Origin: Escherichia phage UPEC06
Sequence record: MW250786
Length of the DNA: 64,000 nt
Strand: one strand, 5' to 3'
Part shown: positions 4,401-64,000 of the stretch, piece after piece
Numbering within the stretch: position 1 is the stretch's first letter
How the letters are laid out: each line of letters opens with the position of its first letter
The notes under the pieces: generated by a model
What the model saw: the letters and a program-made list of their open reading frames with translations, nothing else
What the model was told of the DNA's origin: nothing
The model's database searches: none
Translations under genes and position numbers: made by a program

Positions 4401-4410
4401 CCTTAGATGA

Positions 4411-4428
4411 GTCGGGCTTCGGCCCGAC
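4411..4428 (+). other. GC-rich hairpin after fibre chaperone gene, no U-tract
   Basis: GTCGGGC-ttc-GGCCCGAC perfect stem directly after stop at 4400. Confidence 0.4.
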
Positions 4429-4439
4429 TATGGAGACTT

Positions 4440-4772
4440 ATGATTGTTGATATAATGGCAGTTCTTAAAGCACTTTGGGGTCTTTTAACATTTATTTTGC
4501 TGGGTGCACTAAAGATCTTTTACACCGACTTTAAAAAATTAGAGTCACGTCAAAGCGAGCTTGAAAAAGATGTTCTTCGTTTGAAGGAATCTGCGGTTAC
4601 TAAGGATAGTATCGATGCCATTCTTGACCGTAAGATAAAACATATCACTGATACGATCCAGGATATTAGGACCGATATCACAGATATGCGAAAGGAAGCA
4701 AAAGAAGAAAACCACGCTCTACAGAAGGATATTCGAGAATTACTAAACAAAATTATTGAGAACCGCAAATGA
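4440..4772 (+). CDS. membrane-anchored coiled-coil protein
   Basis: N-terminal hydrophobic helix then charged heptad-like region; start set to ATG 4440 with GGAGA RBS (track start 4407 lies in hairpin). Confidence 0.5.
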   Translation: MIVDIMAVLKALWGLLTFILLGALKIFYTDFKKLESRQSELEKDVLRLKESAVTKDSIDAILDRKIKHITDTIQDIRTDITDMRKEAKEENHALQKDIRELLNKIIENRK

Positions 4773-5227
4773 TTACAGCCATAATATATGGCATTTGTTT
4801 CGTAATCCTTGCTACTCGAAAAGAGAGTGGAACAAAGATAATGGCTGGGCTTTGCCTAGCCTATCTCGTATTGGAGAACCTGATCCTTTGGTTCTTCTCT
4901 ACGCAACAATATTTCGACATCACTCTTTATTTTAATGTTCTCTGGACATTGGATTCGATACTGCTTTTCACTATGGGTTGTACAGTGAAAGGATTACGAC
5001 AAAAACTTATCGTATGCCTAAGTATTCCGTTCATGCTTATTCAAGTGTTTGCAATCCAATATCCAGAATTGTTCCCCTTATGGGTTTACGAATTCGCTCT
5101 TAGAGACGCTCACAAATATTTCATAGAAACCTTTGTGTTCGTTTATTCTTGGAAGGATAATACCGTACCGGAATGGATAAGGACAGCAGTGGTGATATTT
5201 CTGGTGCTCATTGCCCATATGGTATGA
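4769..5227 (+). CDS. multi-pass membrane protein
   Basis: 152 aa with 4-5 hydrophobic segments; ATGA overlap with upstream stop. Confidence 0.5.
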   Translation: MITAIIYGICFVILATRKESGTKIMAGLCLAYLVLENLILWFFSTQQYFDITLYFNVLWTLDSILLFTMGCTVKGLRQKLIVCLSIPFMLIQVFAIQYPELFPLWVYEFALRDAHKYFIETFVFVYSWKDNTVPEWIRTAVVIFLVLIAHMV

Positions 5228-5249
5228 ACATTGATAATGAAGGTGATCT

Positions 5250-5510
5250 ATGTTAAAATTTCTCAAAGACCTCGTTACCTCTGCGGTGGAACCAGATAAA
5301 GCTTCCCATACAAAGTTTTGGTCTAACGTAGGTATGGCTGCTATGACTGCCGTCTTTCTATGGTATGGATTCAACAATACATTGCCTGAATGGTATGTGT
5401 GGCTTTATGCTCCTACGGTAGTGGCTCCACACCTTTTGAGTGATCTCATTAACCTCCGCTGGGGATTATCTTTGAAAAAAGATAAAGGCCCTTCTGACGA
5501 AAACAAGTAA
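5250..5510 (+). CDS. small membrane protein (holin-like topology)
   Basis: 86 aa, two hydrophobic segments, charged C-terminus, RBS-like sequence upstream. Confidence 0.45.
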   Translation: MLKFLKDLVTSAVEPDKASHTKFWSNVGMAAMTAVFLWYGFNNTLPEWYVWLYAPTVVAPHLLSDLINLRWGLSLKKDKGPSDENK

Positions 5511-23463: not shown

Positions 23464-24180
23464 TTATTTGTTGTATTGATAAATTGCTTCAGCCAAGCCC
23501 CGTGGGGTTAATGACCGGATCATCTTAGTTCTTGCTGACTTACCCCCCAACTTATTCTGCTGATCTGACCAACCAGGTGCAACAGGAACCGGAGAGGTTT
23601 TTGGAATTATAAACCCATTCCCTGTCCAAAGTCCAGTCTTTTTAGGATAAGCATCCCGTGGTTTAATGTACTGAGGAAAATAAGGGTTAACATCATTTAC
23701 CGGAAGATAACCACCATATTCCCAAGGGTTGAAATATACCGTAGGCTTTCGCCATTGTCCAGCTAAAACACTAACGGGGTTCTCGATCATGTAAGGACAA
23801 TCAAAAACAAATTCCGCAAGCCAAGCTGCAATCTTTGCAGTTCTTACCGCCTTGATCTGGAAGAAAGGATCTTTTGCTTTCTTTGATGCAAAGTGACGCG
23901 AACCACTGACAGCCATATCAGTACATGGAGGGTAGGCAAGGATCAGGTCCGGTGATGGCAATCCTAAGTTCTCTACATTTTCCATCCATTCAATATCGAT
24001 AAAAGCGTTAACGTAAGTGATGTTGGGATGAATTTCCTTTACACCTTCATAATCCCCGTGATCAGCATCGTCATAGTTGAAGCAGTAGCATTTGTGCCCT
24101 GCCTTCGCCCAGGGAAGAACATCAATCCCTGAACCAGAAAAGAGACTCCAGATAATCTTTTTATTCATCGTAGCATCCAA
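23464..24180 (-). CDS. short DNA cytosine-C5 methyltransferase-like protein (no obvious TRD)
   Basis: Motif I-like LFSGSGI (FxGxG), motif IV-like PPCT (PCQ variant), motif VI-like ENP; only 238 aa. Confidence 0.45.
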   Translation of the reverse strand: MDATMNKKIIWSLFSGSGIDVLPWAKAGHKCYCFNYDDADHGDYEGVKEIHPNITYVNAFIDIEWMENVENLGLPSPDLILAYPPCTDMAVSGSRHFASKKAKDPFFQIKAVRTAKIAAWLAEFVFDCPYMIENPVSVLAGQWRKPTVYFNPWEYGGYLPVNDVNPYFPQYIKPRDAYPKKTGLWTGNGFIIPKTSPVPVAPGWSDQQNKLGGKSARTKMIRSLTPRGLAEAIYQYNK

Positions 24181-24473
24181 ATAGTGGTTAATTTACAAAT
24201 ACACCAGAAAAGTCCGATCAGTGTAGCTAAAGTAATAACACAAGTCAATGCTATAGGTAAGAATATCGTCATAATCACTGCAAAGACTGAAATACCTATG
24301 CTTGCAATAAGATCCGGCACGAAATAGTGAAATGGATCTCTTGCCTTTTTAATGTTGTCCCATGTTATTACTACGGAGCTAAGGACGAGCCAGAATAAAA
24401 AGTACAAAATGCAAGGAAATAAAGTCATGTGTGACTTAACCATATCAAACCACATGTTGTAGAATTCAATCAT
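24165..24473 (-). CDS. small membrane protein
   Basis: 102 aa, 3 hydrophobic helices. Confidence 0.45.
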   Translation of the reverse strand: MIEFYNMWFDMVKSHMTLFPCILYFLFWLVLSSVVITWDNIKKARDPFHYFVPDLIASIGISVFAVIMTIFLPIALTCVITLATLIGLFWCICKLTTIWMLR

Positions 24474-24793
24474 TCAGTTTTCCTCGGTACAGATGCAATA
24501 ACAGCCTTTTCGACGAGATATACAATAAATCTCCCAATCCCTGCCAAAAGGAGAGCAAAGACTGTAAAAGGCAACCCATAAATAAGAACCAAAATCATCA
24601 ATCCAAAACAAGCGGAAAACAGGACTTCTGTGCCCAGCCACATCTTGGAGTAATTGATATAATTATGCCGCAATTTTAAAAACAGTCCAGCAATAGAACC
24701 TACAGAAAATATACCAATCAACCAAGGTGCGGTTACAAATTGACGGCTAAACGCCTCCCAAAAAACAAAAACATTAATGATTGCTTCGATCAT
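24470..24793 (-). CDS. small membrane protein
   Basis: 107 aa, 3 hydrophobic helices. Confidence 0.45.
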   Translation of the reverse strand: MIEAIINVFVFWEAFSRQFVTAPWLIGIFSVGSIAGLFLKLRHNYINYSKMWLGTEVLFSACFGLMILVLIYGLPFTVFALLLAGIGRFIVYLVEKAVIASVPRKTE

Positions 24794-26337: not shown

Positions 26338-27444
26338 TCAGAAAGGCGCGTCATCGTCCCAATCATCCGGCTCTGTGTCCGGCACATCAGGAATATCACC
26401 TGCGGATTCAACGATACTTTGTTGCTCCCATGTAGGTTCTTCTGAAGGTTGTTCCATTTCTTCCATAACCTTCTTGATCTCTTCCTCTTGCTCACGCAGG
26501 AAGTTATCATCCGGCTCAGGAATATCTTCCTCTTTAATATCTGAACGAGTGAGATCACTGTTTTGTTCAGACAGAGGTTGAATCTCTGCTGCCTTAGGCT
26601 TGAAGTCTGGAGAACGATGATCATCTTCTGGATGAGCGGCATACCACTCACGAAGAGTTTCATAAGGACTCTCTAAGAAGCCCTCTGGCGGTTCCAGATA
26701 ATCACCCGTGTCAATGTCATAGAACACAGGGAATTTACCAGCACGACCGTGTTTACGGTCATCCAGAATAACAAAGTAAGAAGTGTTACGTTGTTTCATC
26801 GGGAGTTCTGGATCTTTGTTACGTTCAATACCCCACATATAATAAGTGTTTCGCATCATTGCACGACTGCCAGCAAACTGCGCTGACTGGACTTGACCAC
26901 CAAATTCATGAGGCTTGCCAGATTCAGGCTTATTAAGGTGACAGAAGCAATAATAAGTAAAGCCAAGTTCTTTTGCCAGCTTAGAGATCTCATCCGAGAA
27001 TCGTTCCAGTTCCTGGTTAGCTTCGGAAGCACTCATACCTTGCACAAGACGAGTGATCGGGTCAATAAAGATATCTTCACAACCTTCTACAATCACTGCG
27101 TGACGGATAGCACCTTTCAGTTCATCCCATACTGCACGACCATAGTTGTTATAATAGATGACACTATCACCAACCTCATCTGTAGCTTTGATCAGTTCTT
27201 CTTGCTTAAAGTAGCCACGTTGCCCTTCAAATACTTCATTACCCCAAATGTCACGGAAAGTTCCATCTTCTTGAGGAATCATTACCTTTTCTGCGTTAAC
27301 AAAGTCTTTATGATAACGCTTACCTGCGATCTTTTTACAGGTAATTTCGTTCTCTTCTTCAAACTTAAACACCGCAGCTTTTGACTTCTCAATACCCGTG
27401 ATGTGTTCAACCATTTGGTTAAGAAGTTCAGACTTGCCCATTTT
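26338..27444 (-). CDS. primase-helicase, exon 2 (T7 gp4-like DnaB-family helicase domain, acidic C-terminal tail)
   Basis: Begins at Walker A (K)MGKSELLNQ; CFCHLNKPESGKPHEFGG...ALMRNTYYMWGIERNK resembles T7 gp4 helicase motifs; ends DDWDDDAPF; no own ATG/RBS, track start is TTG two codons after a stop. Confidence 0.6.
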   Translation of the reverse strand, partial: KMGKSELLNQMVEHITGIEKSKAAVFKFEEENEITCKKIAGKRYHKDFVNAEKVMIPQEDGTFRDIWGNEVFEGQRGYFKQEELIKATDEVGDSVIYYNNYGRAVWDELKGAIRHAVIVEGCEDIFIDPITRLVQGMSASEANQELERFSDEISKLAKELGFTYYCFCHLNKPESGKPHEFGGQVQSAQFAGSRAMMRNTYYMWGIERNKDPELPMKQRNTSYFVILDDRKHGRAGKFPVFYDIDTGDYLEPPEGFLESPYETLREWYAAHPEDDHRSPDFKPKAAEIQPLSEQNSDLTRSDIKEEDIPEPDDNFLREQEEEIKKVMEEMEQPSEEPTWEQQSIVESAGDIPDVPDTEPDDWDDDAPF

Positions 27445-28200
27445 CACCGTTATGTTCAGCAAGGTTCGCTACTCCTTGCCCGTTCTCTAAGAACTGCTAC
27501 ATGTCCCCATGCAGACCAGACTATATCTTCAACCCGTAAAACAGGTGCTATGCACTTCGAGCCGCTTGGCCCTACTCTACTCGGTTCAAGAGCTTTGCTC
27601 TTGCCTTTCGATAGTCGTTGCTCCTTCCTCTCAACCGCTTTGTAATCTCTCGAACTGTATCGCGATGAATACCAAAATATTGTGCAATTTCTTTCTGAAG
27701 CATGGTTGTTTTAATGACCATATCATAAACTTCTTTTTCGAAATCATCATCGAATCGGTTTGGGTTTCTTCTTCCCGCTTTCCAACCGTGATCAACATTT
27801 TGCTTTGTAGTCATCCATTCTAGATTACTATCTGCGTTATTTTTCCTGTCTCTATCTTTATGATTAACGACAGGTAGATTATAAGGATTTTCTACATAAT
27901 GTTCAGCCACAAGTTGATGTATAAATCTCCTAGTGACCTTACCATTCTTACTTAATGAAACTCTTAGATACCCTGCACTATTCGTGTCTGGCTTTAGTTT
28001 CTTAAGTTTTCGGTACACATCTCCGCGTCTGGTAATTATGTATTGTTCAAAACCCTTTATTCTTTTCATTTCAACCTCCCTTTTAATGATAACAAAGAGG
28101 TTGAGAGGCTTGGATCAGGATTATCTGTTCTAGACTTCCCCTGAATTCACATAGTATTTAGTCGAGGCATTACTGCCAAGGCTGGCTAGACTTAATGTTT
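27445..28200 (-). mobile_element. putative group I intron (~756 nt) carrying an HNH homing endonuclease ORF
   Basis: Upstream exon ends in U; intron nt 15-20 GCCAGC can pair with exon GCUGGU (P1 with U.G); intron ends in G; phase-0 join restores Walker A; internal HNH ORF. Confidence 0.55.
27572..28069 (-). CDS. HNH homing endonuclease
   Basis: HNH motif VVNHKDRDRKNNADSNLEWMTTKQN, basic helical C-terminus, strong GGGAGG RBS; lies inside putative intron. Confidence 0.7.
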   Translation of the reverse strand: MKRIKGFEQYIITRRGDVYRKLKKLKPDTNSAGYLRVSLSKNGKVTRRFIHQLVAEHYVENPYNLPVVNHKDRDRKNNADSNLEWMTTKQNVDHGWKAGRRNPNRFDDDFEKEVYDMVIKTTMLQKEIAQYFGIHRDTVREITKRLRGRSNDYRKARAKLLNRVE

Positions 28201-29136
28201 ACCAGCACCGATGAAGTAACCTTCACCTGGACGACGACCCAAGGTAAGCTTGGTCATGGTGGGCCAAGGGAACTTCTTGCCGAGTTTAGGGATCTCATGT
28301 GCCTTTTCGCGGAACTGTGAATAAGTCGAGAAACCATCAGGCACATATTCTTTTGGCTTCATTGCAGCCCAAAACAACTGATCAGAAAGACCTTTGTTAT
28401 ACATATCGCAAGGGTCCATATCTTCTGGAATATCCACGACCTTCATTTGTGGAATTACAGAGTATACCGCTGCAACTGCATCTTTACCTTTCATGATCCC
28501 TTTGGCCTTCTCTGCTTCTGTCGCACGGTCAGCATCGAAAGCTACGATAATCTCTTCAAACTTACTCAGAAGCTTATAGTTATTCTTCTGTGATAAGTTT
28601 TGCACGGCATTTGATGTACCGTTAGAGATAGATACAACTGTGAAGTTTGGTTTACGGGTGGAACCATCCTTCGGTTTGTACTTCTCTGTCAATACCTGCC
28701 ACAAGATTGCAGCATCGTATTCACCTTCAGTGATAAAGATCATACGTTTGGAAGACTTATTTGCACCTTCCAGCCCAAACATATCACAAGCCACAGATTG
28801 GAAACCAATAGTTGTAAAGTGACCTTTCTGTTGCTTAGGGATCGTAAGATCACGCTTCTTAAAACCTACAACCTTACCTTCCAATGTGTACGGAAAATAA
28901 TGCGCCTCTGGTGTCATACCGTCTTTAGCTGACAACTTGGTACGAATACCAAATCGTTTAGCTGTCTTTTCGTCGATACCACGCTCAGGGATACTTTTAC
29001 ACGGATAAGTCAATACGTCTTCAACTGTTTCTTCCACACGAGACACACCACCACCATAATTACGTGCTACTGAAGCTTTAGGATTTTTATGTCCAAACTT
29101 ATAACCGCCAAACAGACTTTCGCCAATAGTGCTCAT
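28201..29136 (-). CDS. primase-helicase, exon 1 (TOPRIM primase domain)
   Basis: TOPRIM motifs IFITEGEYDAAIL and IIVAFDADRATE; C-terminal KLTLGRRPGEGYFIGAG resembles the DnaB/gp4 segment before Walker A; no N-terminal Cys4 zinc ribbon. Confidence 0.6.
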
Positions 29137-30470: not shown

Positions 30471-31829
30471 TTATTGATCCTTGAAGATACTGGGGAACTT
30501 CTCATGATAGAAGTTTACAACATCTTGGTCAACAATGATATCTTTTACTCGTAAGCGTTTCAAAAGGCGAAGACCTTCTACACTCGTGGCACGGGAGAGC
30601 ATAACATATGCTTGACCAGGTGTGAAAGTACCAAAGCCGAGATCGATGTTTACCTTACCTAAAGTTAAACCTTGTGCCTTGTGACCAGTGATCGCATAGC
30701 CCAACTTGAATGGGTATTGAATGTATTCACCAATAGATTTATCAACAAGAACAGTCTTTTCAACCATCTTCTTGATCATCTTTTTAGTCCCGTCCGGCAT
30801 ATCAACCTCTTCCTCTTCAAGCATCATCTTTTTCTCAGGTACTTGAGCAACGTTGTTCCATGTTGCAGGGCCAATTGGGACCATTTTACCATCAATATCT
30901 ACAACAACGAAGGTTTTTGCGATACGACGAACAATACCAACTGTACCATTGACATAATCAGGGACTTTCTTCTTCTGATCATTATCGTTAACGACAATCA
31001 TCACTTTAAGACCTTCCTTAAGGAAAAGTTTTTCATTGACTGGACGTTCAACAAATTCACCAGTAATACGAGCATTGAACTCATGCTGTTCAGCATTAAT
31101 CTTTGCATATTCTTTGTTGTTGATCTCTTCTGCCAGCTTGTTCGTGGTAGTTAAAGTTACTGCCCCGTCAAGTGGACGACCAAAGCAACGCTGGTTAAAG
31201 AAGTTAACGGCATCAGGGATGTTTTTCCCGATACGAATATTGTTCAGGTGTTCTGCAAACACTGGATCACTTTGGCGATGAACTTTAGGGAGATAAGCAT
31301 AGGTCAGATTCAAAGATTCCCAAGTTTCGCACCCAAAAGGAATTTCTTTCCCGTGCAGTTCACGGAACAAAGGAACCTCTTCTTTCTTAAGTACAGGCTT
31401 GATCTGGAAACCGTCACCAAACATGATGATCTGGAGTCCACCAAAAGGCTTATCGGATTTACGATGGTGGCGAAGTTTCATATCGATTTCTTTCAGTTTG
31501 TCACTTCGAGTCATGCCGATCTCATCAAACACGATACCATCGAGTGCATCAGATGCCATAAGCATAGCTGCCTTTTTAGATTTTGCCTTATAATCCTCAG
31601 ATGTTGTAACCCCAAATGTCAAACCAAAGGCTTTGTGGGTGGTAACACCACGAATGTTTAATGATGCTACACCTGTTGGTCCAACGAACAAGAAACTATC
31701 GGCAAAGAAATCACGAAGTGCTGCGATCATCATACTTTTGCCACTACCACCAGGTCCAGTGATAAAAACGTTTTCACCATTCATGATTGCTTGCATCGCT
31801 GCTTCGTTACCGATCACTGTCTTAGTCAT
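30471..31829 (-). CDS. SF1 DNA helicase, Dda/RecD-like
   Basis: Walker A FITGPGGSGKS, Walker B IVFDEIGM, HRQSD-type motif. Confidence 0.7.
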   Translation of the reverse strand: MTKTVIGNEAAMQAIMNGENVFITGPGGSGKSMMIAALRDFFADSFLFVGPTGVASLNIRGVTTHKAFGLTFGVTTSEDYKAKSKKAAMLMASDALDGIVFDEIGMTRSDKLKEIDMKLRHHRKSDKPFGGLQIIMFGDGFQIKPVLKKEEVPLFRELHGKEIPFGCETWESLNLTYAYLPKVHRQSDPVFAEHLNNIRIGKNIPDAVNFFNQRCFGRPLDGAVTLTTTNKLAEEINNKEYAKINAEQHEFNARITGEFVERPVNEKLFLKEGLKVMIVVNDNDQKKKVPDYVNGTVGIVRRIAKTFVVVDIDGKMVPIGPATWNNVAQVPEKKMMLEEEEVDMPDGTKKMIKKMVEKTVLVDKSIGEYIQYPFKLGYAITGHKAQGLTLGKVNIDLGFGTFTPGQAYVMLSRATSVEGLRLLKRLRVKDIIVDQDVVNFYHEKFPSIFKDQ

Positions 31830-32019
31830 TATTTAGTTCCTCATATTCATATGGGTAGAGTAGATATCCTTTGTTGTCTTTTAGTGCTACAGCTATAACA
31901 CTCTCAAGGTAAAAATCATCGTCATAGTGCATTTCTTCAATTACAAGAATATCACCTTTCTTTGGATGATCATCGCGATCACTGAAATCATTTAGTAGTT
32001 TTATTTTTACGTTTTTCAT
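31822..32019 (-). CDS. hypothetical protein
   Basis: 65-aa ORF. Confidence 0.35.
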   Translation of the reverse strand: MKNVKIKLLNDFSDRDDHPKKGDILVIEEMHYDDDFYLESVIAVALKDNKGYLLYPYEYEELNND

Positions 32020-32200
32020 ATAACATCTCCGCTGCTACAAGGGATAAGATCATTGCCATATACATTACAATGGAAGTCACACTGATCTGAATGAAAACCT
32101 CATCGGTTACATGATCAAAGTAAGCATTCTTTACATATCTTACGCCCACGAGCCAAAATACCATTACTACAGCAAATGTCAGTATCATACGTTTTATCAT
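31988..32200 (-). CDS. small two-TM membrane protein (holin candidate)
   Basis: 70 aa, two hydrophobic helices, charged C-terminus, directly downstream of cell-wall hydrolase gene. Confidence 0.45.
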   Translation of the reverse strand: MIKRMILTFAVVMVFWLVGVRYVKNAYFDHVTDEVFIQISVTSIVMYMAMILSLVAAEMLYEKRKNKTTK

Positions 32201-32712
32201 TTCTTTTTCTCCTCTTTATCTTTATAAAAGATGTGATTTTCTATGGTAACTGTTCTTTTCAGAAGTTTACGCCACACAGGCTTAACCTTCTTAGTGTGAT
32301 AATACAAAGATCCATGCGTTGGGTCAAACCTTTTATACAAAACCTCATTATTTTTTATCTTATGTACAAACTTAGAGATGCTGAGCGCACCCTCCCAGGA
32401 GTCTTTATCTGTTATGCTATAAGAGGATTTAGTTAATGTCCATGAAAACTGAGAGGCTTGATACACAACTCCTTTCATTGTTCTCGGGAATTTATCATTT
32501 TTCATCCGATTCATTGTAACGAAGGCAACAGCCATTTGACCATTTATCGTCTCGCCTCGGGACTCCATATAGACATTACAGGCTAAGGCATTTACAGAAT
32601 TATCCTTTTTCGTACATTTATGAATAACCTTCTGTGCTCTCTCTTTGGCATAAGTGACGCCTGGTGCCAGAGACAGAGTACAAATCAAACCACATAAAAC
32701 TAATTTTTTCAT
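32197..32712 (-). CDS. secreted cell-wall hydrolase (SleB/Hydrolase_2-like), endolysin candidate
   Basis: N-terminal signal peptide; NALACNVYMESRGETINGQMAVAFVTMNRM resembles the SleB-type hydrolase core. Confidence 0.5.
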   Translation of the reverse strand: MKKLVLCGLICTLSLAPGVTYAKERAQKVIHKCTKKDNSVNALACNVYMESRGETINGQMAVAFVTMNRMKNDKFPRTMKGVVYQASQFSWTLTKSSYSITDKDSWEGALSISKFVHKIKNNEVLYKRFDPTHGSLYYHTKKVKPVWRKLLKRTVTIENHIFYKDKEEKKK

Positions 32713-32758
32713 TTTCCCTCCAATTGAGGACCCAGCTTATCACTGGGTCACCCTCTTG

Positions 32759-33145
32759 TCAACTACCTTCGATATGCTTCTGAATTTGATCAGCAATACC
32801 TTTCCACAAACCATTAAGGAAAGGGTTGCTTGTGATGACTTCGCCCAACCAGGGGCCATACAGGCGGTATACGTAGTCATCTGTGATCGCATAGATACTT
32901 CCATCACGTACAGCAAGACCACGTACAAGGGAGGTTGTTACACGACGACCTGCAAACCCCGTCTTTTGGTATTCCAGTTCAGAATGTTCAATATAACCTA
33001 CCAGACTTACCAGATTTTGAGTTCCATCAATTTCAAACCCGCATTTCTTTTCGAGGTCTTCTGAAATCGTACTAACCCCTTCCAGTGCAAAGTTACCACC
33101 GAATTTTAGGCCATACTTAGCTGCCAGTTTATCGTGTGCTGTCAT
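32759..33145 (-). CDS. hypothetical protein
   Basis: 128-aa ORF. Confidence 0.45.
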   Translation of the reverse strand: MTAHDKLAAKYGLKFGGNFALEGVSTISEDLEKKCGFEIDGTQNLVSLVGYIEHSELEYQKTGFAGRRVTTSLVRGLAVRDGSIYAITDDYVYRLYGPWLGEVITSNPFLNGLWKGIADQIQKHIEGS

Positions 33146-41482: not shown

Positions 41483-41562
41483 TCTCTTGACAACGAAAAA
41501 CAGTTAACTTAATATAAGGGCATCTCGAAAGAGGTGTCCTTTTTTAATTTGGAGAAAATGAA

Positions 41563-43095
41563 ATGGCAAAACTGACGATTGAAGAAAGTAACATGATTGA
41601 AATGCAAGTCTCTGAAGCGGAACGTATCATTGAGGCTGCTAGTCTACAACTGATGCGTTTTAAACCCTTCTACGGGGTGATGCTTTCGTCTATGCCTGTT
41701 AAAAAGGCAACTGAGTGGTGCAGTACAATGGCGACTGATGGACGCAACCTATACTATCATCCAGAATTCATTGCAGGTATGACAGAAGAACGTAAAAAAT
41801 TAGTACTCGATCGACTTTCCAAATCTGAGTCCGATCCTAAAAAGCTTAAAGAGGCAACTGAATTTATTAATGTTTTTTATCGACGGAAGACCGCTCGTGA
41901 AGTTGCACTTATTCTTGAGCATGAATGTGATCATGTGATCTCTGATCACGCCTCTCGCGGTAAAGGATTTAATCATGAACTTTACAACATTGCAGCGGAT
42001 CATCGTATCAATACAACGGCTGTGCTTATTCACCAGAAAGGGGATGAGTTAGGTAAAGCCTGGTTCCCTGCCGGAGAGAGAACGGTATTTGATAAGAATG
42101 CTGAATTTGGATTTATGGCCTGGTCTTATTGTGACTTCCGATTCAAAGATATGTATACAGAGCAAATCTATGAAATCTTAAATAAAGAGCAGGACGATAA
42201 AGAAAAATCCAAAGGGGAAGGTTCTGGAAGTGGAAAAGGAGATGGTGAAGAAGGTGATCAAGGCCGTAAAGGTGTTGATCAGCACATGGACCCAAATGGT
42301 GATCCAGAAGATTCAGAAGATGATAGTATCGAAGATGCACTCGGAATCGACCGTAAAGCGAAACCTAAGCAAACAGCAGAGGAACGCCAATATAACGATG
42401 GGGTTATGCGTCGAGCCATTGAGAATGCCGTACAGGCAGCAGGAAGCGGTGCACCGGAAGATGCACGACGTTTTGTAGAGGCGGCAGGTAAACCAAAGAT
42501 TAACTATCTTCGTTTGTTGCGTAAAACTATTGAACGTCTGTTCAAAGATGATGTATCATATCGTCGTTTGTCACGCCGTAGTCACTCGTTAACTCGGACT
42601 CTCCGTAGCTCAGGTTACTTGTCTGGACGACAAACAATTGGTTTACCATCAAAGAATAAACAGAAGACTATCCGTGCAGGTGTTTTCTTTGATGTGTCGG
42701 GATCATTTAACGATGAACTGTTAAGACCAACAATGCGTGAGATTCGTGGATTGTGTAATCTTTACGACGAGTTTGAGGTCACGATGGCTTGCTGGTCAAC
42801 AAAGGTTGGTAACATTGAAACGTATACGAAGAAGAATGTGAATGAGATTGCTAACTATAAGATCAAGACCACATTTGGTACGGATGTTTCTTGTGTGTTT
42901 GAAGCATTAGATGAAATGAAAGACCCTATGGATCAGATCATCATCTATACTGACGGTTACTTTGCTGATGTATCCCAAAAGAAAGATTGGGCCAAAAAGT
43001 ATGGTAAGAATGTTCTTTGGATCATCCTGGGTCGTGGGTCTTCGTTCAATCCACCTTTTGGTAAAGCCATTGATTTTGACAAGTATCTTAAATAA
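41563..43095 (+). CDS. vWA-domain protein with N-terminal HExxH metallopeptidase-like motif (DUF2201-like MoxR partner)
   Basis: HExxH in ALILEHECDHVISDH; MIDAS-type DxSxS in VFFDVSGSF; acidic Gly/Glu/Asp-rich linker; directly downstream of AAA+ gene. Confidence 0.6.
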   Translation: MAKLTIEESNMIEMQVSEAERIIEAASLQLMRFKPFYGVMLSSMPVKKATEWCSTMATDGRNLYYHPEFIAGMTEERKKLVLDRLSKSESDPKKLKEATEFINVFYRRKTAREVALILEHECDHVISDHASRGKGFNHELYNIAADHRINTTAVLIHQKGDELGKAWFPAGERTVFDKNAEFGFMAWSYCDFRFKDMYTEQIYEILNKEQDDKEKSKGEGSGSGKGDGEEGDQGRKGVDQHMDPNGDPEDSEDDSIEDALGIDRKAKPKQTAEERQYNDGVMRRAIENAVQAAGSGAPEDARRFVEAAGKPKINYLRLLRKTIERLFKDDVSYRRLSRRSHSLTRTLRSSGYLSGRQTIGLPSKNKQKTIRAGVFFDVSGSFNDELLRPTMREIRGLCNLYDEFEVTMACWSTKVGNIETYTKKNVNEIANYKIKTTFGTDVSCVFEALDEMKDPMDQIIIYTDGYFADVSQKKDWAKKYGKNVLWIILGRGSSFNPPFGKAIDFDKYLK

Positions 43096-56926: not shown

Positions 56927-56935
56927 TCATAAAGC

Positions 56936-56954
56936 GGCGGGAATAGTTCCCGCC
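56936..56954 (+). other. intercistronic leader stem-loop (GCGGGAA-tag-TTCCCGC) without promoter
   Basis: 8-bp GC-rich stem between stop of upstream ORF and RBS of next ORF; same family as promoter-linked hairpins. Confidence 0.5.
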
Positions 56955-56980
56955 TTATTAAAGAGAAAAGAGAAGATATC

Positions 56981-57259
56981 ATGACTATTACTAAATTATC
57001 CACCGAAGAGATCACCAACATTCTGACTACTAATCTTGGAGATTGGAAGCGTGAAGCTGATTTGCAAGCAACCTGTAAACTGAATACAGAGCTAACATCA
57101 GACGATATTGAAACGATCGTCCATGCTGATTTCTATGATGCTTTGCATGATGATTCTATCGTCCTTGAAACGTTGTTAGATAATGCCTGGATCAATCCCG
57201 ATTTGGCGGCGTATGGTCATAGCGCCTTTGTTACTATCCACAATATTTATAACCGTTAA
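56981..57259 (+). CDS. hypothetical protein, paralogue of 58733-59011 product
   Basis: MTITKLSTEEITNILTTNLGDWKREADLQ aligns with MTIAKLSAEEIEQVLTTNLEQWKREADIQ. Confidence 0.55.
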   Translation: MTITKLSTEEITNILTTNLGDWKREADLQATCKLNTELTSDDIETIVHADFYDALHDDSIVLETLLDNAWINPDLAAYGHSAFVTIHNIYNR

Positions 57260-57269
57260 GAGGTGATAA

Positions 57270-57533
57270 GTGGCCCTTTCAACAACAAATAAAGTAATTG
57301 GTGTTATCCCTGGGAGATCAATCAAGGTTGGCGATCTCATACGCTTACAAGTTGCTTCCTTTCCTGGTCCGGCTTATGATTTTTGTCATACCGTTGCGAT
57401 TCAAGAGAATCCGCATGATGTTAACCTCATGGTGATTTGGTACAAGCTGGCAAATGGTCAACTTTGCGAGGATATCATAGGGAAAGATGAGGCGTTCAAT
57501 ATTATGTACCAAAACGGCCCGCTAACGGCCTAA
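57270..57533 (+). CDS. hypothetical protein, paralogue of 59255-59482 product
   Basis: GTG start with AAGAGGTGA RBS; shared PxYDFC...VIWY...DIxGxDE pattern. Confidence 0.5.
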   Translation: MALSTTNKVIGVIPGRSIKVGDLIRLQVASFPGPAYDFCHTVAIQENPHDVNLMVIWYKLANGQLCEDIIGKDEAFNIMYQNGPLTA

Positions 57534-57630
57534 AACGGCGAAAGTATGCAATCACCTTACTTGATACTATTCTACGCCCTGGCTTATCCTGGGGCTTTTG
57601 ATTGGGGTAGAAAATAATTCGAAAAAGTAG

Positions 57631-57687
57631 TTGACGGCAATTAACACTATGGTAAAGTGTACCCCGTAGGGCGGCAATAGCGCCGCT
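57631..57687 (+). promoter_or_regulatory. promoter-stem-loop cassette (GTAGTTGACG + GGGCGGCAATAGCGCCGCT hairpin)
   Basis: As other cassettes; approx coords. Confidence 0.55.
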
Positions 57688-58045
57688 CACTGAAAAAGGG
57701 TAAAATCATGTTAGAAAAAATTTTCACGGTTGTAATCTTAGGTTTAACATTCTTTGTAGGAGTAACTGCAACGATGGCTAATATGATTTTATCTTTCAAT
57801 GGTATTGGTTAAGAGGAAACAACAAATGAAAACTTTCAACGCAACAGCCTCAACAATTGGCTATATTATTACAGTACAGGCCGTGGATCTGGTAGCGGCG
57901 GCAAACAAGATTAAAAAAATGATTCCGACAGATAGCAAATTTTCCGTATGGGAAGTCAAATAATCCTTGACAGTAATTTATTATCTGGTAAAGTCTATTA
58001 TGTAGGGCGGCAATAGTGCCGCTGATAACCGAAGAGAAACAACAA

Positions 58046-58219
58046 ATGATCCCAACTATCTTTTACATATCTCGCAAAGGCATCAACATCCATTGGATGG
58101 AAGATTTAGAGCAAGCTATAGAGTATGCCCGTGGTCGTGTCGCTATCGGCGGCGTAGATATCACCGTTACCGATGAGAACGGGATCGAGTATTATAACAG
58201 CGAAGAAGAAGACTACTAA
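58046..58219 (+). CDS. hypothetical small protein
   Basis: Start set to ATG 58046 (MIPTIF) after promoter, GGCGGCAATAGTGCCGC hairpin and RBS. Confidence 0.45.
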   Translation: MIPTIFYISRKGINIHWMEDLEQAIEYARGRVAIGGVDITVTDENGIEYYNSEEEDY

Positions 58220-58263
58220 TCAACAGGGCGGCAAGAATGCCGCCATATAAAGGAATAAATGAA

Positions 58264-58650
58264 ATGAAACAAGAAATCATCAATACAATTATCGACGGTT
58301 ACAAAGAAGCCTTTATTTTCGCTGAATCAGCAACGGATCAGTACGGGGAGCATATCGATAACCTTGATCCTTATGACTTCTCCCAGGACGCAAACGACCG
58401 GATCGCCCAGGATGTAACAGCCTTCATTAATGCCAATATCGCCGTTATATCTGAGGCAATGTCTGACGGTGCAACAGCGATCCAGATAGGGAATGATTTA
58501 CATCTTACACGCAACGGTCACGGCGTAGGATTTTGGGATCGTCCTGAGATATACACCACGGATACGGGTAACCGTTTGAGTAATGCCGCTAAATTAATGC
58601 CTAACGTGTCAGCTTACATTGGGAAAGATAATCTGATTTATATTGAATAA
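58264..58650 (+). CDS. hypothetical protein
   Basis: Start set to ATG 58264 (MKQEII) after RBS; track start 58237 lies in loop of hairpin GGGCGGCAAGAATGCCGCC. Confidence 0.45.
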   Translation: MKQEIINTIIDGYKEAFIFAESATDQYGEHIDNLDPYDFSQDANDRIAQDVTAFINANIAVISEAMSDGATAIQIGNDLHLTRNGHGVGFWDRPEIYTTDTGNRLSNAAKLMPNVSAYIGKDNLIYIE

Positions 58651-62487: not shown

Positions 62488-62907
62488 ATGAACATCAAAT
62501 CAAATAATCCGGCATACTCTTTCGATAACGCTTTTTGTCACGGTAGCGCCGCCAAAGGTTTTGAAATTGATGGTAAACTGGTTATCGTCAATGTTGATGG
62601 GGAAGAGGTTGCAGTTTATCCAGTGGCAGACGTTAAAAGCCGTTTACAGTGCCGCATGGACGTTAACGAATATCGCCTTGATCCGGTTCGTGTAGTTGCC
62701 TTAGTCCTGGAAGAAGAAATTAAAGCAATGCAGCATAGCAACAAGTTTATCGGTGATGCACAGGACAACATGAAAGTAAGCCGCCACAAAGTTAATGAAG
62801 CACTGAAAGATTTTGGCTTTAAAGACCTAGTTATTAAACGTGATGAAAAATTCCGCTTTCGTAATGATCTGGCAAATCGCTACTATGAAATCTATGAAGC
62901 ACTTTAA
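62488..62907 (+). CDS. hypothetical protein
   Basis: 139-aa ORF after TTGACA promoter-like site. Confidence 0.5.
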   Translation: MNIKSNNPAYSFDNAFCHGSAAKGFEIDGKLVIVNVDGEEVAVYPVADVKSRLQCRMDVNEYRLDPVRVVALVLEEEIKAMQHSNKFIGDAQDNMKVSRHKVNEALKDFGFKDLVIKRDEKFRFRNDLANRYYEIYEAL

Positions 62908-62920
62908 GAGGTAAGACAAC

Positions 62921-62947
62921 AAAGGGCCGCTATTGCGGCCTTTATTA
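62921..62947 (+). terminator. Rho-independent terminator ending the small-ORF array
   Basis: AAAGGGCCGC-tatt-GCGGCCTTT hairpin plus TTTATTAT. Confidence 0.65.
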
Positions 62948-63151
62948 TATCCATCGGCGTGACTCTCCCAACTCTATTAATCCCCTCCCTCATTTGGATC
63001 ATCCTACTCTATCCAACCCTTCTAACTTACTTTACCCATCAATCTAATCAGCTTCCTGAATCTCTCCTATAAAAATCAAAACTAACCTGATAGCTTACCA
63101 CAACAAAACACACAAAGAAAGAACTATTTTGCCCACAAAGAAAGCAGTTTT

Positions 63152-63790
63152 AAAGAGATACCATTGCCAGAGTATGGAGGTGGCGCGACCGTAGGGAGCG
63201 ACACTATAAAACGAGTATACCCCTCCTACCGCTATGCGGTCATCGGTGATAACCGATAACATACTGTTATCTGTTCTCTTCGTTTCCTCGTTTTATAGTG
63301 TCTACTTATAGTAATCTTTTATCCTTTGTCAATACATTATCGAAGATAATATTGAATTATTTAATGCTTTGTTAGTAATTATTTATGCATGGATACTGAT
63401 TATGTATGCAATAAGGATGCAATGGGAAGGCCGTTAGTGTGACCACACAAAGAGGCTGTAGGGTACACAAAGAGGCCGTAAAAGGCTGTATTTGCCCACA
63501 GAATGAACAAGTAAGCAGGGCGGTACGCCAGTTTGCTAGACAAAACTCTCTTCTCTCTTCTCTCCCCAAATAAATTTTTTCTTGCTTTTATTGCCAGAGT
63601 ATGGCGGGGCGCTCAGGCTATTGATGGCCCTGATGGAGTCGCTCCTGCACAGTTGGGATAGTTCATCGTTGGATAGTCACAAGTTGGTATTATTCTTCCC
63701 ACTAGTTGGAACAGGCCAGAACTGGCGGGGCTTGGAGTCGCTCCACTTGTTGGGCGGAAGAAGGGCGCTTGCAGTGCGTATAAGTTGTAT
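63152..63790. repeat. dispersed imperfect repeats in terminal non-coding region
   Basis: ATTGCCAGAGTATGG at ~63152 and ~63590 with a variant GCCAGAACTGGCGGGG at ~63713; GGAGTCGCTCC x2; CACAAAGAGGCYGTA x2 at ~63445-63480. Confidence 0.4.
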
Positions 63791-64000
63791 TATGTTAAAT
63801 GCAGATCGAAATCGGTATTCTAAATCAGATTCAGAAGTCAATAGAAATCTTTAACTTTATTGTTGGGGTAGCACAACATTTTTCTTGACAAGTCGAATCA
63901 AAGATGTATTGCGGATTGAAAATAAATGAAGATAATGCTTGACTTCTTGGATATTTTGAAAACATCGGACCCCCTCTCCCTCCCCCACGGTCGCCGTGCC

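What the first reader, a model, noticed from the sequence alone, without database searches (positions are those of the whole stretch)
31988..32712. Candidate lysis pair: signal-peptide SleB-like cell-wall hydrolase plus a two-TM holin-like protein
The 171-aa product has an N-terminal signal sequence and a segment resembling the SleB/Hydrolase_2 core. The gene directly downstream (overlapping start and stop) encodes a 70-aa two-TM protein with a charged C-terminus. This would be a secreted or signal-anchored endolysin with a small membrane partner, located in the early/middle block. A separate trio of membrane proteins sits among the fibre genes, so lysis-gene assignment is ambiguous.
Basis: inference. 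Interest (0 to 1): 0.45.

Follow-up and report, generated by a model that had tools for sequence, protein, structure and literature searches.

The report
Secreted phage wall hydrolase with partner
A large E. coli phage encodes an exported cell-wall-cutting enzyme of the SleB type followed by a tiny two-helix membrane protein. This arrangement has already been described in related phages, and it is probably an auxiliary wall-degrading module rather than the phage's main lysis system.

Summary
On the minus strand, 32197-32712 encodes a 171-aa protein with a cleavable-looking signal peptide and a full Hydrolase_2 (SleB/CwlJ) domain (83 bits; invariant Glu50; predicted fold matches only SleB). Gene 31988-32200 overlaps it by ATGA and encodes a 70-aa, two-TM protein with a basic C-terminus.

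The "lysis pair" reading is only partly supported. The window belongs to a ~140 kb Vequintavirinae E. coli phage. All five close relatives also carry, outside the window's span, a cytoplasmic T5-type M15 peptidase endolysin (99-100% conserved) and an Rz/Rz1 spanin pair beside the terminase.

The SleB-like enzyme with its signal peptide is constant across rV5-, PVP-SE1-, phi92- and T5-like phages. The canonical endolysin varies among them.

The 70-aa partner is a lineage-restricted ORFan (3 clusters in 5.8 billion proteins). It hits no holin family and is absent from a relative whose hydrolase is 85% identical, and from rV5 (rIIA sits there).

The same pair was already proposed as signal-peptide SleB plus class II holin for Certrevirus phage CB7 (PMC7344957).

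My best reading is a Sec-exported auxiliary muralytic enzyme with a dispensable, translationally coupled membrane accessory. It is a new member of a known kind, of low to moderate interest.

The parts
32197..32712 (-). Gene for a 171-aa exported SleB/CwlJ-type cell-wall hydrolase (stop codon included)
   Evidence: ORF. Pfam Hydrolase_2 83.1 bits, E 2.3e-23. phrog_938 endolysin. PDB sequence hits to SleB 4f55/4fet. AF2 model pLDDT 86.9, and Foldseek finds only SleB catalytic domains, TM 0.74.
32647..32712 (-). Codons 1-22: predicted Sec signal peptide MKKLVLCGLICTLSLAPGVTYA, with predicted cleavage between A22 and K23
   Evidence: Hydropathy and sequence. The leader and the AxA|K(E/D) site are conserved in Vequintavirinae homologs. 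A hydrophobic leader is present in 58 of 68 distinct viral Hydrolase_2 architectures and in T5-like and phAPEC8 homologs. It is disordered in the AF2 model. Cleavage itself is inferred, not shown.
32224..32556 (-). Hydrolase_2 catalytic domain (residues 53-163 by Pfam; the conserved core starts about residue 37). The Glu50 codon is at 32563-32565.
   Evidence: profile 1-100/100. (VYMESRGE aligned to SleB VYGESRGE). (E50 invariant in 28 homologs; E54, C33 and C45 conserved).
31988..32200 (-). Gene for a 70-aa inner-membrane protein with two TM helices and a basic C-terminus. It is translationally coupled to the hydrolase through an ATGA overlap.
   Evidence: Relatives are found only in five close phages plus 3 protein clusters. 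No holin family hit.
32713..32762 (-). Conserved intergenic control region upstream of the hydrolase: TTGACA, 17 nt, then a TG-extended TAAGCT (sigma-70-like), overlapping a hairpin/palindrome GACCCAG-TGATAAG-CTGGGTC
   Evidence: Alignment of six phages including CR8, with an A-T to G-C compensatory change in the stem. The motif is unique in the window. RNA fold is -20.5 kcal/mol, z -4.2. Its function is inferred.

Best explanation
The 171-aa protein is a phage-encoded SleB/CwlJ-type muralytic enzyme, most likely a lytic transglycosylase. It is made with a cleavable Sec signal peptide, exported to the periplasm and released as a basic, soluble enzyme of about 149 aa. It probably carries a C33-C45 disulfide.

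It sits in the replication (early/middle) gene block behind its own conserved host-type promoter. It therefore reaches the wall independently of a holin.

I read it as an auxiliary, second wall-degrading enzyme. The phage's principal lysis machinery is encoded outside this window: a cytoplasmic M15 L-alanyl-D-glutamate-type peptidase endolysin, a still unidentified holin, and Rz/Rz1 spanins.

The exported enzyme would nick or thin the sacculus at tolerated levels. It would contribute fully to wall destruction once the membrane is de-energised at lysis, as is known for secreted endolysins.

The 70-aa protein is co-translated with it and inserts N-in/C-in in the inner membrane. It is a lineage-specific, dispensable accessory that most plausibly tunes the timing or activity of this exported enzyme in a holin-like, membrane-perturbing way. 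It is not the phage's essential holin.

Shown: gene structure, domain, conserved Glu, fold, leader conservation, the second endolysin and spanins in the lineage, and patchy presence of the partner.
Inferred: export and cleavage, enzymatic chemistry, timing, role in lysis, and the function of the partner.
For: - Domain, catalytic position and fold. The catalytic Glu is essential for SleB lytic transglycosylase activity (PMC12331253).
- Signal peptide with an AxA|K site conserved across the clade, and leaders in 58/68 viral architectures.
- The CB7 homolog has a signal peptide and is toxic when expressed (PMC7344957).
- The PA5oct homolog is not in the virion (PMC7318152).
- Second endolysin and spanins in the lineage, outside the window.
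- Pfam screens of 106 window ORFs and 103 ORFs of the rest of A7_1 find only Hydrolase_2 and Peptidase_M15_4 as muralytic domains.
- The canonical endolysin differs between genera while the SleB-like gene is constant. GH19 in KPP-1; lysozyme-like LysECP26 in rV5-likes; 'two endolysins' in PVP-SE1/BME3; M15 next to the holin and SleB-like far away in T5-likes.
- The partner is dispensable and not conserved.
- Own conserved promoter-like region.
Against: - No experiment on this protein or a close homolog is available. Toxicity of CB7_83 is 'data not shown'.
- No holin has been identified for the M15 endolysin in this subfamily, so the 70-aa protein could still be it in this lineage. Tight ATGA coupling, two TMs, a basic C-terminus and an MIKRM N-terminus (two Met codons separated by Lys/Arg) all look holin-like.
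- An exported active muralytic enzyme made early should be dangerous, and I have no direct evidence for how it is restrained.
- Expression timing is inferred from gene position and a consensus promoter only.
- SleB itself needs muramic-delta-lactam, which E. coli wall lacks (my own knowledge). Activity on ordinary peptidoglycan is therefore assumed, not shown.
Confidence: 0.5

Rival explanations
1. This is a true, self-sufficient lysis pair, as the first reader and the CB7 authors proposed. The exported SleB-like enzyme is the functional endolysin. The 70-aa protein is a class II holin, or a small depolarising holin, whose triggering collapses the membrane potential and activates the already-exported enzyme.
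For: - Architecture and coupling of the two genes.
- The same arrangement in Certrevirus phages (PMC7344957).
- The N-terminal MIKRM/MIKM motif resembles holin dual starts.
- No other recognisable holin family in the window or in A7_1.
- The hydrolase family is listed among lysin catalytic domains of Gram-negative phages (PMC8223927).
Against: - A conserved canonical M15 endolysin exists in every close relative.
- The partner is absent in L087 (hydrolase 85% identical, 141-kb contig), L089, rV5-like, T5-like and phAPEC8-like phages.
- The Certrevirus partners lack the basic C-terminus and are not detectably homologous.
- There are no holin HMM hits.
- TM1 is strongly hydrophobic (FAVVMVFWLV), so it is not an S21-type pinholin.
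- The second Met lies about 20 nt from the SD, too far for a genuine dual start (my reading).
- The pair sits in the replication block, not the late block.
Confidence: 0.2
2. The hydrolase has no role in lysis. It is an early/middle periplasmic wall-remodelling factor. Possible roles are loosening the sacculus for cell enlargement, blocking division, or altering the envelope against superinfection. The 70-aa gene is an unrelated accessory gene occupying a variable slot.
For: - Position among replication genes with its own host-type promoter.
- It is a constant core gene in groups whose true endolysin varies.
- The slot downstream is variable: 2-TM protein, rIIA, a soluble 65-aa protein, or nothing.
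- Membrane-protein neighbours are not enriched: 18/68 architectures against a 19% per-ORF baseline.
Against: - No known precedent that I could find in the searched literature for such a role.
- The ATGA overlap argues that the two products are made together.
- The reported toxicity of the CB7 homolog fits a lytic enzyme.
Confidence: 0.2
3. The 70-aa protein is a restraint or release factor for the exported enzyme, in the manner of an antiholin, immunity protein or releasin. It keeps the hydrolase inactive or membrane-associated until lysis.
For: - Translational coupling gives fixed stoichiometry.
- An exported muralytic enzyme needs restraint.
- The periplasmic loop carries a small conserved motif, W..GVR....F.H.
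Against: Relatives with a nearly identical hydrolase lack the partner. The enzyme therefore does not need it for safety. There is no evidence of interaction. The leader looks cleavable rather than a membrane anchor.
Confidence: 0.1

Closest known systems
CB7_83 (SleB-like, signal peptide) and CB7_82 (65-aa 2-TM 'class II holin candidate') of Pectobacterium phage CB7; also CR8 gp090/gp089 (Certrevirus, Vequintavirinae)
   Same: - Same subfamily.
- Same gene order: upstream gene, hydrolase, overlapping small 2-TM gene, PIF1-type helicase.
- Hydrolase 57-61% identical with the same leader and AxA|KE site.
- Same conserved promoter/hairpin upstream.
- Same co-existence with an M15 endolysin (83.5% identical) and Rz/Rz1 beside the terminase.
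   Different: The small partners are not detectably homologous (hhalign probability 5%). The Certrevirus ones form phrog_10205 and end in AHD/GNE with no basic tail. The window's protein ends in EKRKNKTTK and belongs to a three-cluster ORFan family.
Bacillus SleB catalytic domain (PDB 4F55, 4FET) and CwlJ: germination-specific lytic transglycosylases
   Same: Pfam Hydrolase_2. 28-29% identity. Fold TM-score 0.74. The GESRGE motif with the catalytic Glu position is conserved.
   Different: - No N-terminal peptidoglycan-binding domain, so it is single-domain like CwlJ.
- Carries a Sec signal peptide.
- Encoded by a phage of a Gram-negative host whose wall has no muramic-delta-lactam (my own knowledge).
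- Extra conserved Cys pair.
SleB-like hydrolases of rV5, PVP-SE1, phi92/BME3/phAPEC8 and T5-like phages (the 'second endolysin' in the replication module)
   Same: Homologous (30-41% identity), with a signal peptide. They are located away from the canonical endolysin, in the early/replication module.
   Different: These have no small membrane partner. rV5-likes have rIIA immediately downstream with the same 4-nt overlap. This lineage has no rIIA at all.
Exported endolysins: Sec-secreted Lys44 of Oenococcus phage fOg44, and SAR endolysins (P1 Lyz, phage 21 R) with pinholin S21 (recalled from my own knowledge, not tested here)
   Same: Holin-independent export of a muralytic enzyme through Sec, paired with a small two-TM membrane protein.
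   Different: The leader here has a conserved signal-peptidase site, so it is not a signal-anchor-release domain. TM1 of the partner is strongly hydrophobic, unlike the releasable TM1 of a pinholin. A cytoplasmic endolysin co-exists in the genome.

Membership tests
Pfam Hydrolase_2 (SleB/CwlJ catalytic domain) | Profile match above the curated gathering score over the full domain | tested here: met
   83.1 bits against a cutoff of 27, profile positions 1-100 of 100.
Pfam Hydrolase_2 (SleB/CwlJ catalytic domain) | Conserved catalytic glutamate | tested here: met
   E50 aligns with the first Glu of SleB's GESRGE and is invariant in 28 homologs. The essential role of the Glu is stated in PMC12331253. 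The residue numbering in SleB could not be checked because the primary papers are not held.
Pfam Hydrolase_2 (SleB/CwlJ catalytic domain) | SleB catalytic-domain fold | tested here: met
   AF2 model pLDDT 86.9. Foldseek finds 4f55/4fet as the only significant hits (E 2e-6, target TM 0.74).
Pfam Hydrolase_2 (SleB/CwlJ catalytic domain) | Lytic transglycosylase chemistry (1,6-anhydro-muramyl products) | not testable with these tools
   Needs muropeptide analysis of digested sacculi.
Phage endolysin (functional class) | Required for host lysis at the end of infection | not testable with these tools
   No genetic data exist. A second, canonical M15 endolysin exists in the lineage, so necessity cannot be assumed.
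Phage endolysin (functional class) | Encoded in a lysis cassette with a holin and/or spanins | tested here: inconclusive
   The pair is adjacent to a 2-TM protein of unknown family. The spanins lie far away beside the terminase. The neighbours are replication genes.
SAR (signal-anchor-release) endolysin | Uncleaved, weakly hydrophobic N-terminal TM domain with no signal-peptidase site | tested here: not met
   The leader ends in a conserved Pro/Gly turn plus AxA|K(E/D) site across the clade. Actual cleavage was not tested experimentally.
Class II holin | Small protein with two TM domains, N-in/C-in | tested here: met
   Hydropathy and charge distribution. No dedicated topology predictor was available.
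Class II holin | Highly charged, basic cytoplasmic C-terminus | tested here: met
   EKRKNKTTK in the window and the four close relatives sequenced here. It is weak in L088 (VENLFKK) and absent in the Certrevirus positional partners.
Class II holin | Similarity to a described holin family | tested here: not met
   No Pfam or PHROG holin hit. The best hits are sub-threshold to unrelated membrane families. The deep search finds only 3 own-lineage clusters.
Class II holin | Indispensable, and so retained in all lytic relatives | tested here: not met
   Absent in L087, L089 and rV5, and in CR9 according to PMC7344957.
Class II holin | Forms lethal membrane lesions on a timer; complements a holin-null phage | not testable with these tools
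   Needs a lambda S-null complementation assay.
Pinholin (S21 type) | TM1 is a weakly hydrophobic, Gly/Ala-rich domain able to leave the membrane | tested here: not met
   TM1 is ILTFAVVMVFWLVGV, Kyte-Doolittle mean about 2.0, rich in Phe/Val/Leu/Trp.

The most novel reading that the evidence does not exclude
The signal-peptide SleB-type enzyme is a core gene of several large virulent enterobacterial phage groups (Vequintavirinae, phi92-like, T5-like). It defines a holin-independent, Sec-dependent second route to the cell wall. It is driven by its own host-type promoter, which overlaps a conserved palindrome. The gene slot immediately downstream encodes interchangeable membrane-integrity modulators that gate this route: a 2-TM protein here and in Certrevirus, rIIA in rV5 and PVP-SE1. 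If so, 'two endolysins' in these phages would mean two mechanistically separate lysis or wall-remodelling pathways, and the positional exchange with rIIA would give a handle on the long-unclear function of rII.
Probability: 0.2. Interest if true: 0.55.

Novelty: new member of a known kind. Interest (0 to 1): 0.27.

Why it matters
For annotation: the gene should be called an exported SleB-like cell-wall hydrolase, not simply 'the endolysin'. The 70-aa gene should be called a membrane protein, at most a holin candidate. The lineage's canonical endolysin and spanins lie elsewhere.

For biology: it is still unknown why rV5-, PVP-SE1-, phi92- and T5-like phages all keep a Sec-exported SleB-type enzyme in their replication module alongside a conventional endolysin. 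This lineage and its natural partner-less relative (L087) would be a convenient pair for testing what the small membrane protein adds.

For applications: the mature domain is a compact, basic, single-domain muralytic enzyme from a Gram-negative phage. Enzymes of this type are of interest as enzybiotic candidates.

Tried and rejected
1. Membrane neighbours across viral Hydrolase_2 genes. I asked whether these genes in general sit next to membrane proteins. Eighty IMG/VR loci were analysed. Of 68 distinct architectures, 18 have an adjacent TM ORF of 200 aa or less, against a baseline of 19% per small ORF. Only 3 have a small downstream protein with two or more TMs. There is no enrichment.

2. 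Apparent lysis cassettes elsewhere. Some contigs (L014, L050) carry two Hydrolase_2 paralogs flanking a 3-TM protein, followed by a 1-TM protein. The 1-TM protein is a staphylococcal-nuclease homolog, not a spanin, and the 3-TM protein hits nothing. I rejected these as evidence for an endolysin role.

3. Homology between the window's 70-aa protein and the Certrevirus partners (phrog_10205). hhalign probability is 5%, so homology is not shown.

4. A repeated phage promoter. I asked whether the conserved upstream motif recurs and would date expression. It occurs once in the window, so no temporal class could be assigned. The generic promoter/terminator scan was uninformative.

5. SAR-endolysin, pinholin and lipoprotein readings. 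The first two were rejected from the conserved AxA site and the strongly hydrophobic TM1. The third was rejected because the window's leader has no lipobox (LVLC and GLIC have Leu or Ile at -1).

6. rIIA in this lineage. There is none in the window or in the whole A7_1 genome.

7. Primary SleB structure papers (PMC3415495, PMC3621120). They are not held, so the SleB residue number of the catalytic Glu could not be verified. One literature 'find' call failed on a too-short term.

8. Literature searches for an experimentally characterised phage Hydrolase_2 lysin. Nothing direct was found.

Full report
**What is there.** Two minus-strand ORFs occupy the stated interval. The first is 32197..32712 (171 aa) and the second is 31988..32200 (70 aa). 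They overlap by ATGA, and each is preceded by a strong ribosome-binding site.

The larger protein matches Pfam Hydrolase_2 across the entire profile (83.1 bits, cutoff 27, E 2.3e-23). It also matches PHROG 938 'endolysin'. By sequence it hits the crystal structures of the SleB catalytic domain, with the window's VYMESRGE aligned to SleB's VYGESRGE.

In an alignment of 28 homologs, Glu50 is invariant and Glu54 nearly so. Cys33 and Cys45 are conserved within the Vequintavirinae clade.

An AlphaFold2 model is confident (mean pLDDT 86.9; the core is mostly above 93; the leader is disordered). Foldseek against the PDB returns only the two SleB catalytic-domain entries as significant (E 2e-6, target-normalised TM 0.74). 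The catalytic glutamate is essential for SleB's lytic transglycosylase activity according to PMC12331253.

The N-terminus, MKK-LVLCGLICTLSL-APGVTYA|KE, has the n/h/c layout of a cleavable Sec signal peptide. The window's leader has no lipobox.

The 70-aa protein has two strongly hydrophobic segments and basic termini (MIKR......EKRKNKTTK), giving an N-in/C-in topology.

**Whose genome.** The region is 90-95% identical at the DNA level to five E. coli phages of about 140 kb: A5-4, vB_EcoM-LTH01, A73, A7_1 and W70. These are classified in Vequintavirinae without a genus. The next relatives are Certrevirus phages such as CR8 and CB7, with the hydrolase 57-61% identical. The window corresponds to A7_1 coordinates 24,141-89,679.

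**The hydrolase family in phages.** tblastn finds relatives in 1269 phage records. These include rV5-like, PVP-SE1-like, phi92/phAPEC8-like, T5-like and Pseudomonas Pakpunavirus-like phages, annotated variously as endolysin, cell wall hydrolase or spore cortex-lytic enzyme precursor.

A hydrophobic leader is a family trait. It is present in 58 of 68 distinct architectures among 80 IMG/VR loci. It is also present in the T5-like SE7 homolog (...LPAYA|T) and the phAPEC8 homolog (...VVAKA|E). In the Vequintavirinae clade the leader ends in a conserved AxA|K(E/D) site preceded by Pro/Gly.

I conclude, by inference from sequence, that the enzyme is exported and released into the periplasm rather than tethered like a SAR endolysin. 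The conserved Cys pair fits a periplasmic disulfide.

**Is it the endolysin?** The lineage has another one. In A7_1, gene A71_42 (127 aa, beside phoH) matches Peptidase_M15_4 (56 bits) and PHROG 465 'endolysin' (E 8e-66). It has no hydrophobic segment. It is 99-100% identical in all five close relatives and 83.5% identical to the annotated endolysins of CB7 and phiTE. Immediately upstream of the terminase lie an Rz-like protein with an N-terminal TM and an Rz1-like lipoprotein with lipobox LVGC.

Both sets lie outside the window. Batch Pfam scans of 106 window ORFs and of 103 ORFs from the rest of A7_1 find Hydrolase_2 and Peptidase_M15_4 as the only muralytic families of this size. They find no Pfam holin family (2 of the 27 families were not listed).

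The literature gives the same picture elsewhere.
- CB7 has a SleB-like enzyme plus a T5-type peptidase, while other Certrevirus members have a lysozyme-like enzyme instead (PMC7344957).
- KPP-1 uses a GH19 endolysin.
- rV5-like phages have the lysozyme-like LysECP26.
- In T5-like Salmonella phages the M15 enzyme sits by the holin and the SleB-like gene lies far away.
- PA5oct's homolog is absent from virions.

The exported SleB-type enzyme is thus the constant element and the cytoplasmic endolysin is the exchangeable one.

**Is the 70-aa protein a holin?** It has the right size, topology and tail, and it is adjacent to and coupled with a muralytic gene. Its N-terminus, MIKRM (MIKM in L088), superficially recalls a dual-start motif.

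Several observations count against an essential holin role.
- It hits no holin family in Pfam or PHROGs.
- tblastn finds it only in the five close phages. A profile search of 5.8 billion proteins finds three clusters, all from this lineage.
- The Certrevirus proteins in the same position (phrog_10205, 'membrane protein') lack a basic tail. They are not significantly similar by profile-profile comparison (probability 5%).
- The gene is dispensable in nature. In the 141-kb contig L087 the hydrolase is 85% identical, but it is followed directly by the soluble 65-aa protein and the helicase. In L089 the helicase follows immediately. In rV5 and Av-05-like phages rIIA follows with the same 4-nt overlap. 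The T5-like and phAPEC8 homologs have no membrane neighbour. CR9 lacks it according to the CB7 paper.
- TM1 is too hydrophobic for an S21-type pinholin.
- The second Met is about 20 nt from the SD.

Membrane proteins are also plentiful in this genome. The trio at 4407-5510, in the late tail-fibre operon, is far more widely conserved. The 86-aa member occurs in 373 records and the 152-aa member in 106. No record annotates them as holins, but they remain at least as good candidates.

**Regulation.** The 46-nt spacer upstream of the hydrolase, together with the end of the preceding gene, is unusually conserved, even in CR8. It reads TTGACA, 17 nt, then a TG-extended TAAGCT/TAAACT. This overlaps a 7-bp-stem hairpin or palindrome, and one stem pair changes A-T to G-C in CR8.

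The motif is unique in the window. As RNA the region folds at -20.5 kcal/mol (z = -4.2). A host-type promoter inside the replication block suggests expression before the late genes, but this is inference only.

**Mechanism I commit to (confidence about 0.5).** The protein is a Sec-exported, signal-peptide-cleaved, periplasmic SleB/CwlJ-type muralytic enzyme that acts as an auxiliary wall-degrading activity. Principal lysis is by the M15 endolysin, an unidentified holin and Rz/Rz1. The 70-aa protein is a co-translated, lineage-specific, dispensable inner-membrane accessory that may modulate timing.

The rivals are:
- a genuine exported-endolysin plus holin pair as the main system (0.2);
- a non-lytic early wall-remodelling role with an unrelated neighbour (0.2);
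- a restraint or release factor role for the small protein (0.1).

**Novelty.** The gene pair, its signal peptide and the holin hypothesis were all described for Certrevirus CB7 in 2020. The 'second, SleB-like endolysin in the replication module' has been noted repeatedly.

This window adds three things. It is a new lineage with a non-homologous (or unrecognisably diverged) partner that does carry a basic tail. It has a natural partner-less close relative. It has a conserved promoter/hairpin. That makes it a new member of a known kind. The open question of what the exported enzyme is for remains unanswered by experiment, which keeps interest above the floor (0.27).

Noticed in passing
window 32713-32762 (minus strand): The intergenic region upstream of the hydrolase is conserved as far as CR8. 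It has a sigma-70-like TTGACA, 17 nt, then a TG-extended TAAGCT, overlapping a hairpin/palindrome GACCCAG-TGATAAG-CTGGGTC. One stem pair shows a compensatory A-T to G-C change. The motif is unique in the window. The RNA fold is -20.5 kcal/mol (z -4.2) and partly pairs with the Shine-Dalgarno sequence in read-through transcripts. It could be an operator or a processing or translation-control element.
   Followed up: partly
window 31822-32019 (minus strand): A 65-aa soluble ORF overlaps the 3' end of the 70-aa gene by 32 nt and the helicase start by 8 nt. It hits phrog_14198 (E 6e-9) and has clear homologs in L087 and L088. It is not annotated in LTH01 or A7_1, so it is probably a missed gene in those records.
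   Followed up: partly
window 4407-5510 (plus strand): Three small membrane proteins follow the tail-fibre assembly gene. The first is 121 aa with 1 N-terminal TM and a coiled coil (phrog_5345). The second is 152 aa with 3 TMs (phrog_7451). The third is 86 aa with 2 TMs and a charged tail KKDKGPSDENK (phrog_1322). They are conserved across Vequintavirinae and phi92-like phages (373 and 106 records for the two members searched, the 86-aa and 152-aa proteins). No record annotates them as holins. They are the best alternative holin/antiholin candidates for the cytoplasmic M15 endolysin.
   Followed up: partly
window 26338-29136 (minus strand): The primase/helicase gene is a single 2046-nt CDS in LTH01. 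In the window it is split into a 314-aa part and a 374-aa part (DnaB_C hit) around a 165-aa HNH_3 endonuclease ORF at 27572-28069. This looks like a homing-endonuclease or intron-type insertion, as discussed for CB7. A7_1 in turn carries an extra HNH gene (A71_207) where the window has none (window about 41561-41581).
   Followed up: partly
alignment A1 (homologs P0004, P0007, P0010, P0014-P0017): About a third of the Certrevirus-like hydrolase leaders carry a lipobox-compatible motif, [ILV][AVL]AC, at residue 12-13. This lies in front of the conserved AxA|KE site, so some homologs might be lipoproteins or have alternative processing. The window's protein (LVLC, GLIC) does not fit a lipobox.
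   Followed up: no
L014 1874-3885 and L050 1470-3419 (IMG/VR contigs): Unrelated viral contigs carry two Hydrolase_2 paralogs with leaders flanking a 3-TM protein of about 110 aa. A leader-bearing staphylococcal-nuclease homolog follows. This is a small cluster of exported enzymes of unknown purpose.
   Followed up: partly
window 24165-24793 (minus strand); A7_1 L006 7310-7956: There are two adjacent pairs of 2-TM proteins of about 100-110 aa, one pair in the window and another elsewhere in the relative's genome. They have no Pfam hits. Pfam also reports three FRD2-family members among the window's ORFs, which I did not locate.
   Followed up: no
window 56927-58264 and 62907-64000: These segments have no match or only low identity (81-88%) to A7_1, within the block of many small plus-strand ORFs. 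This is a variable accessory-gene region compared with the 92-96% identity elsewhere.
   Followed up: no
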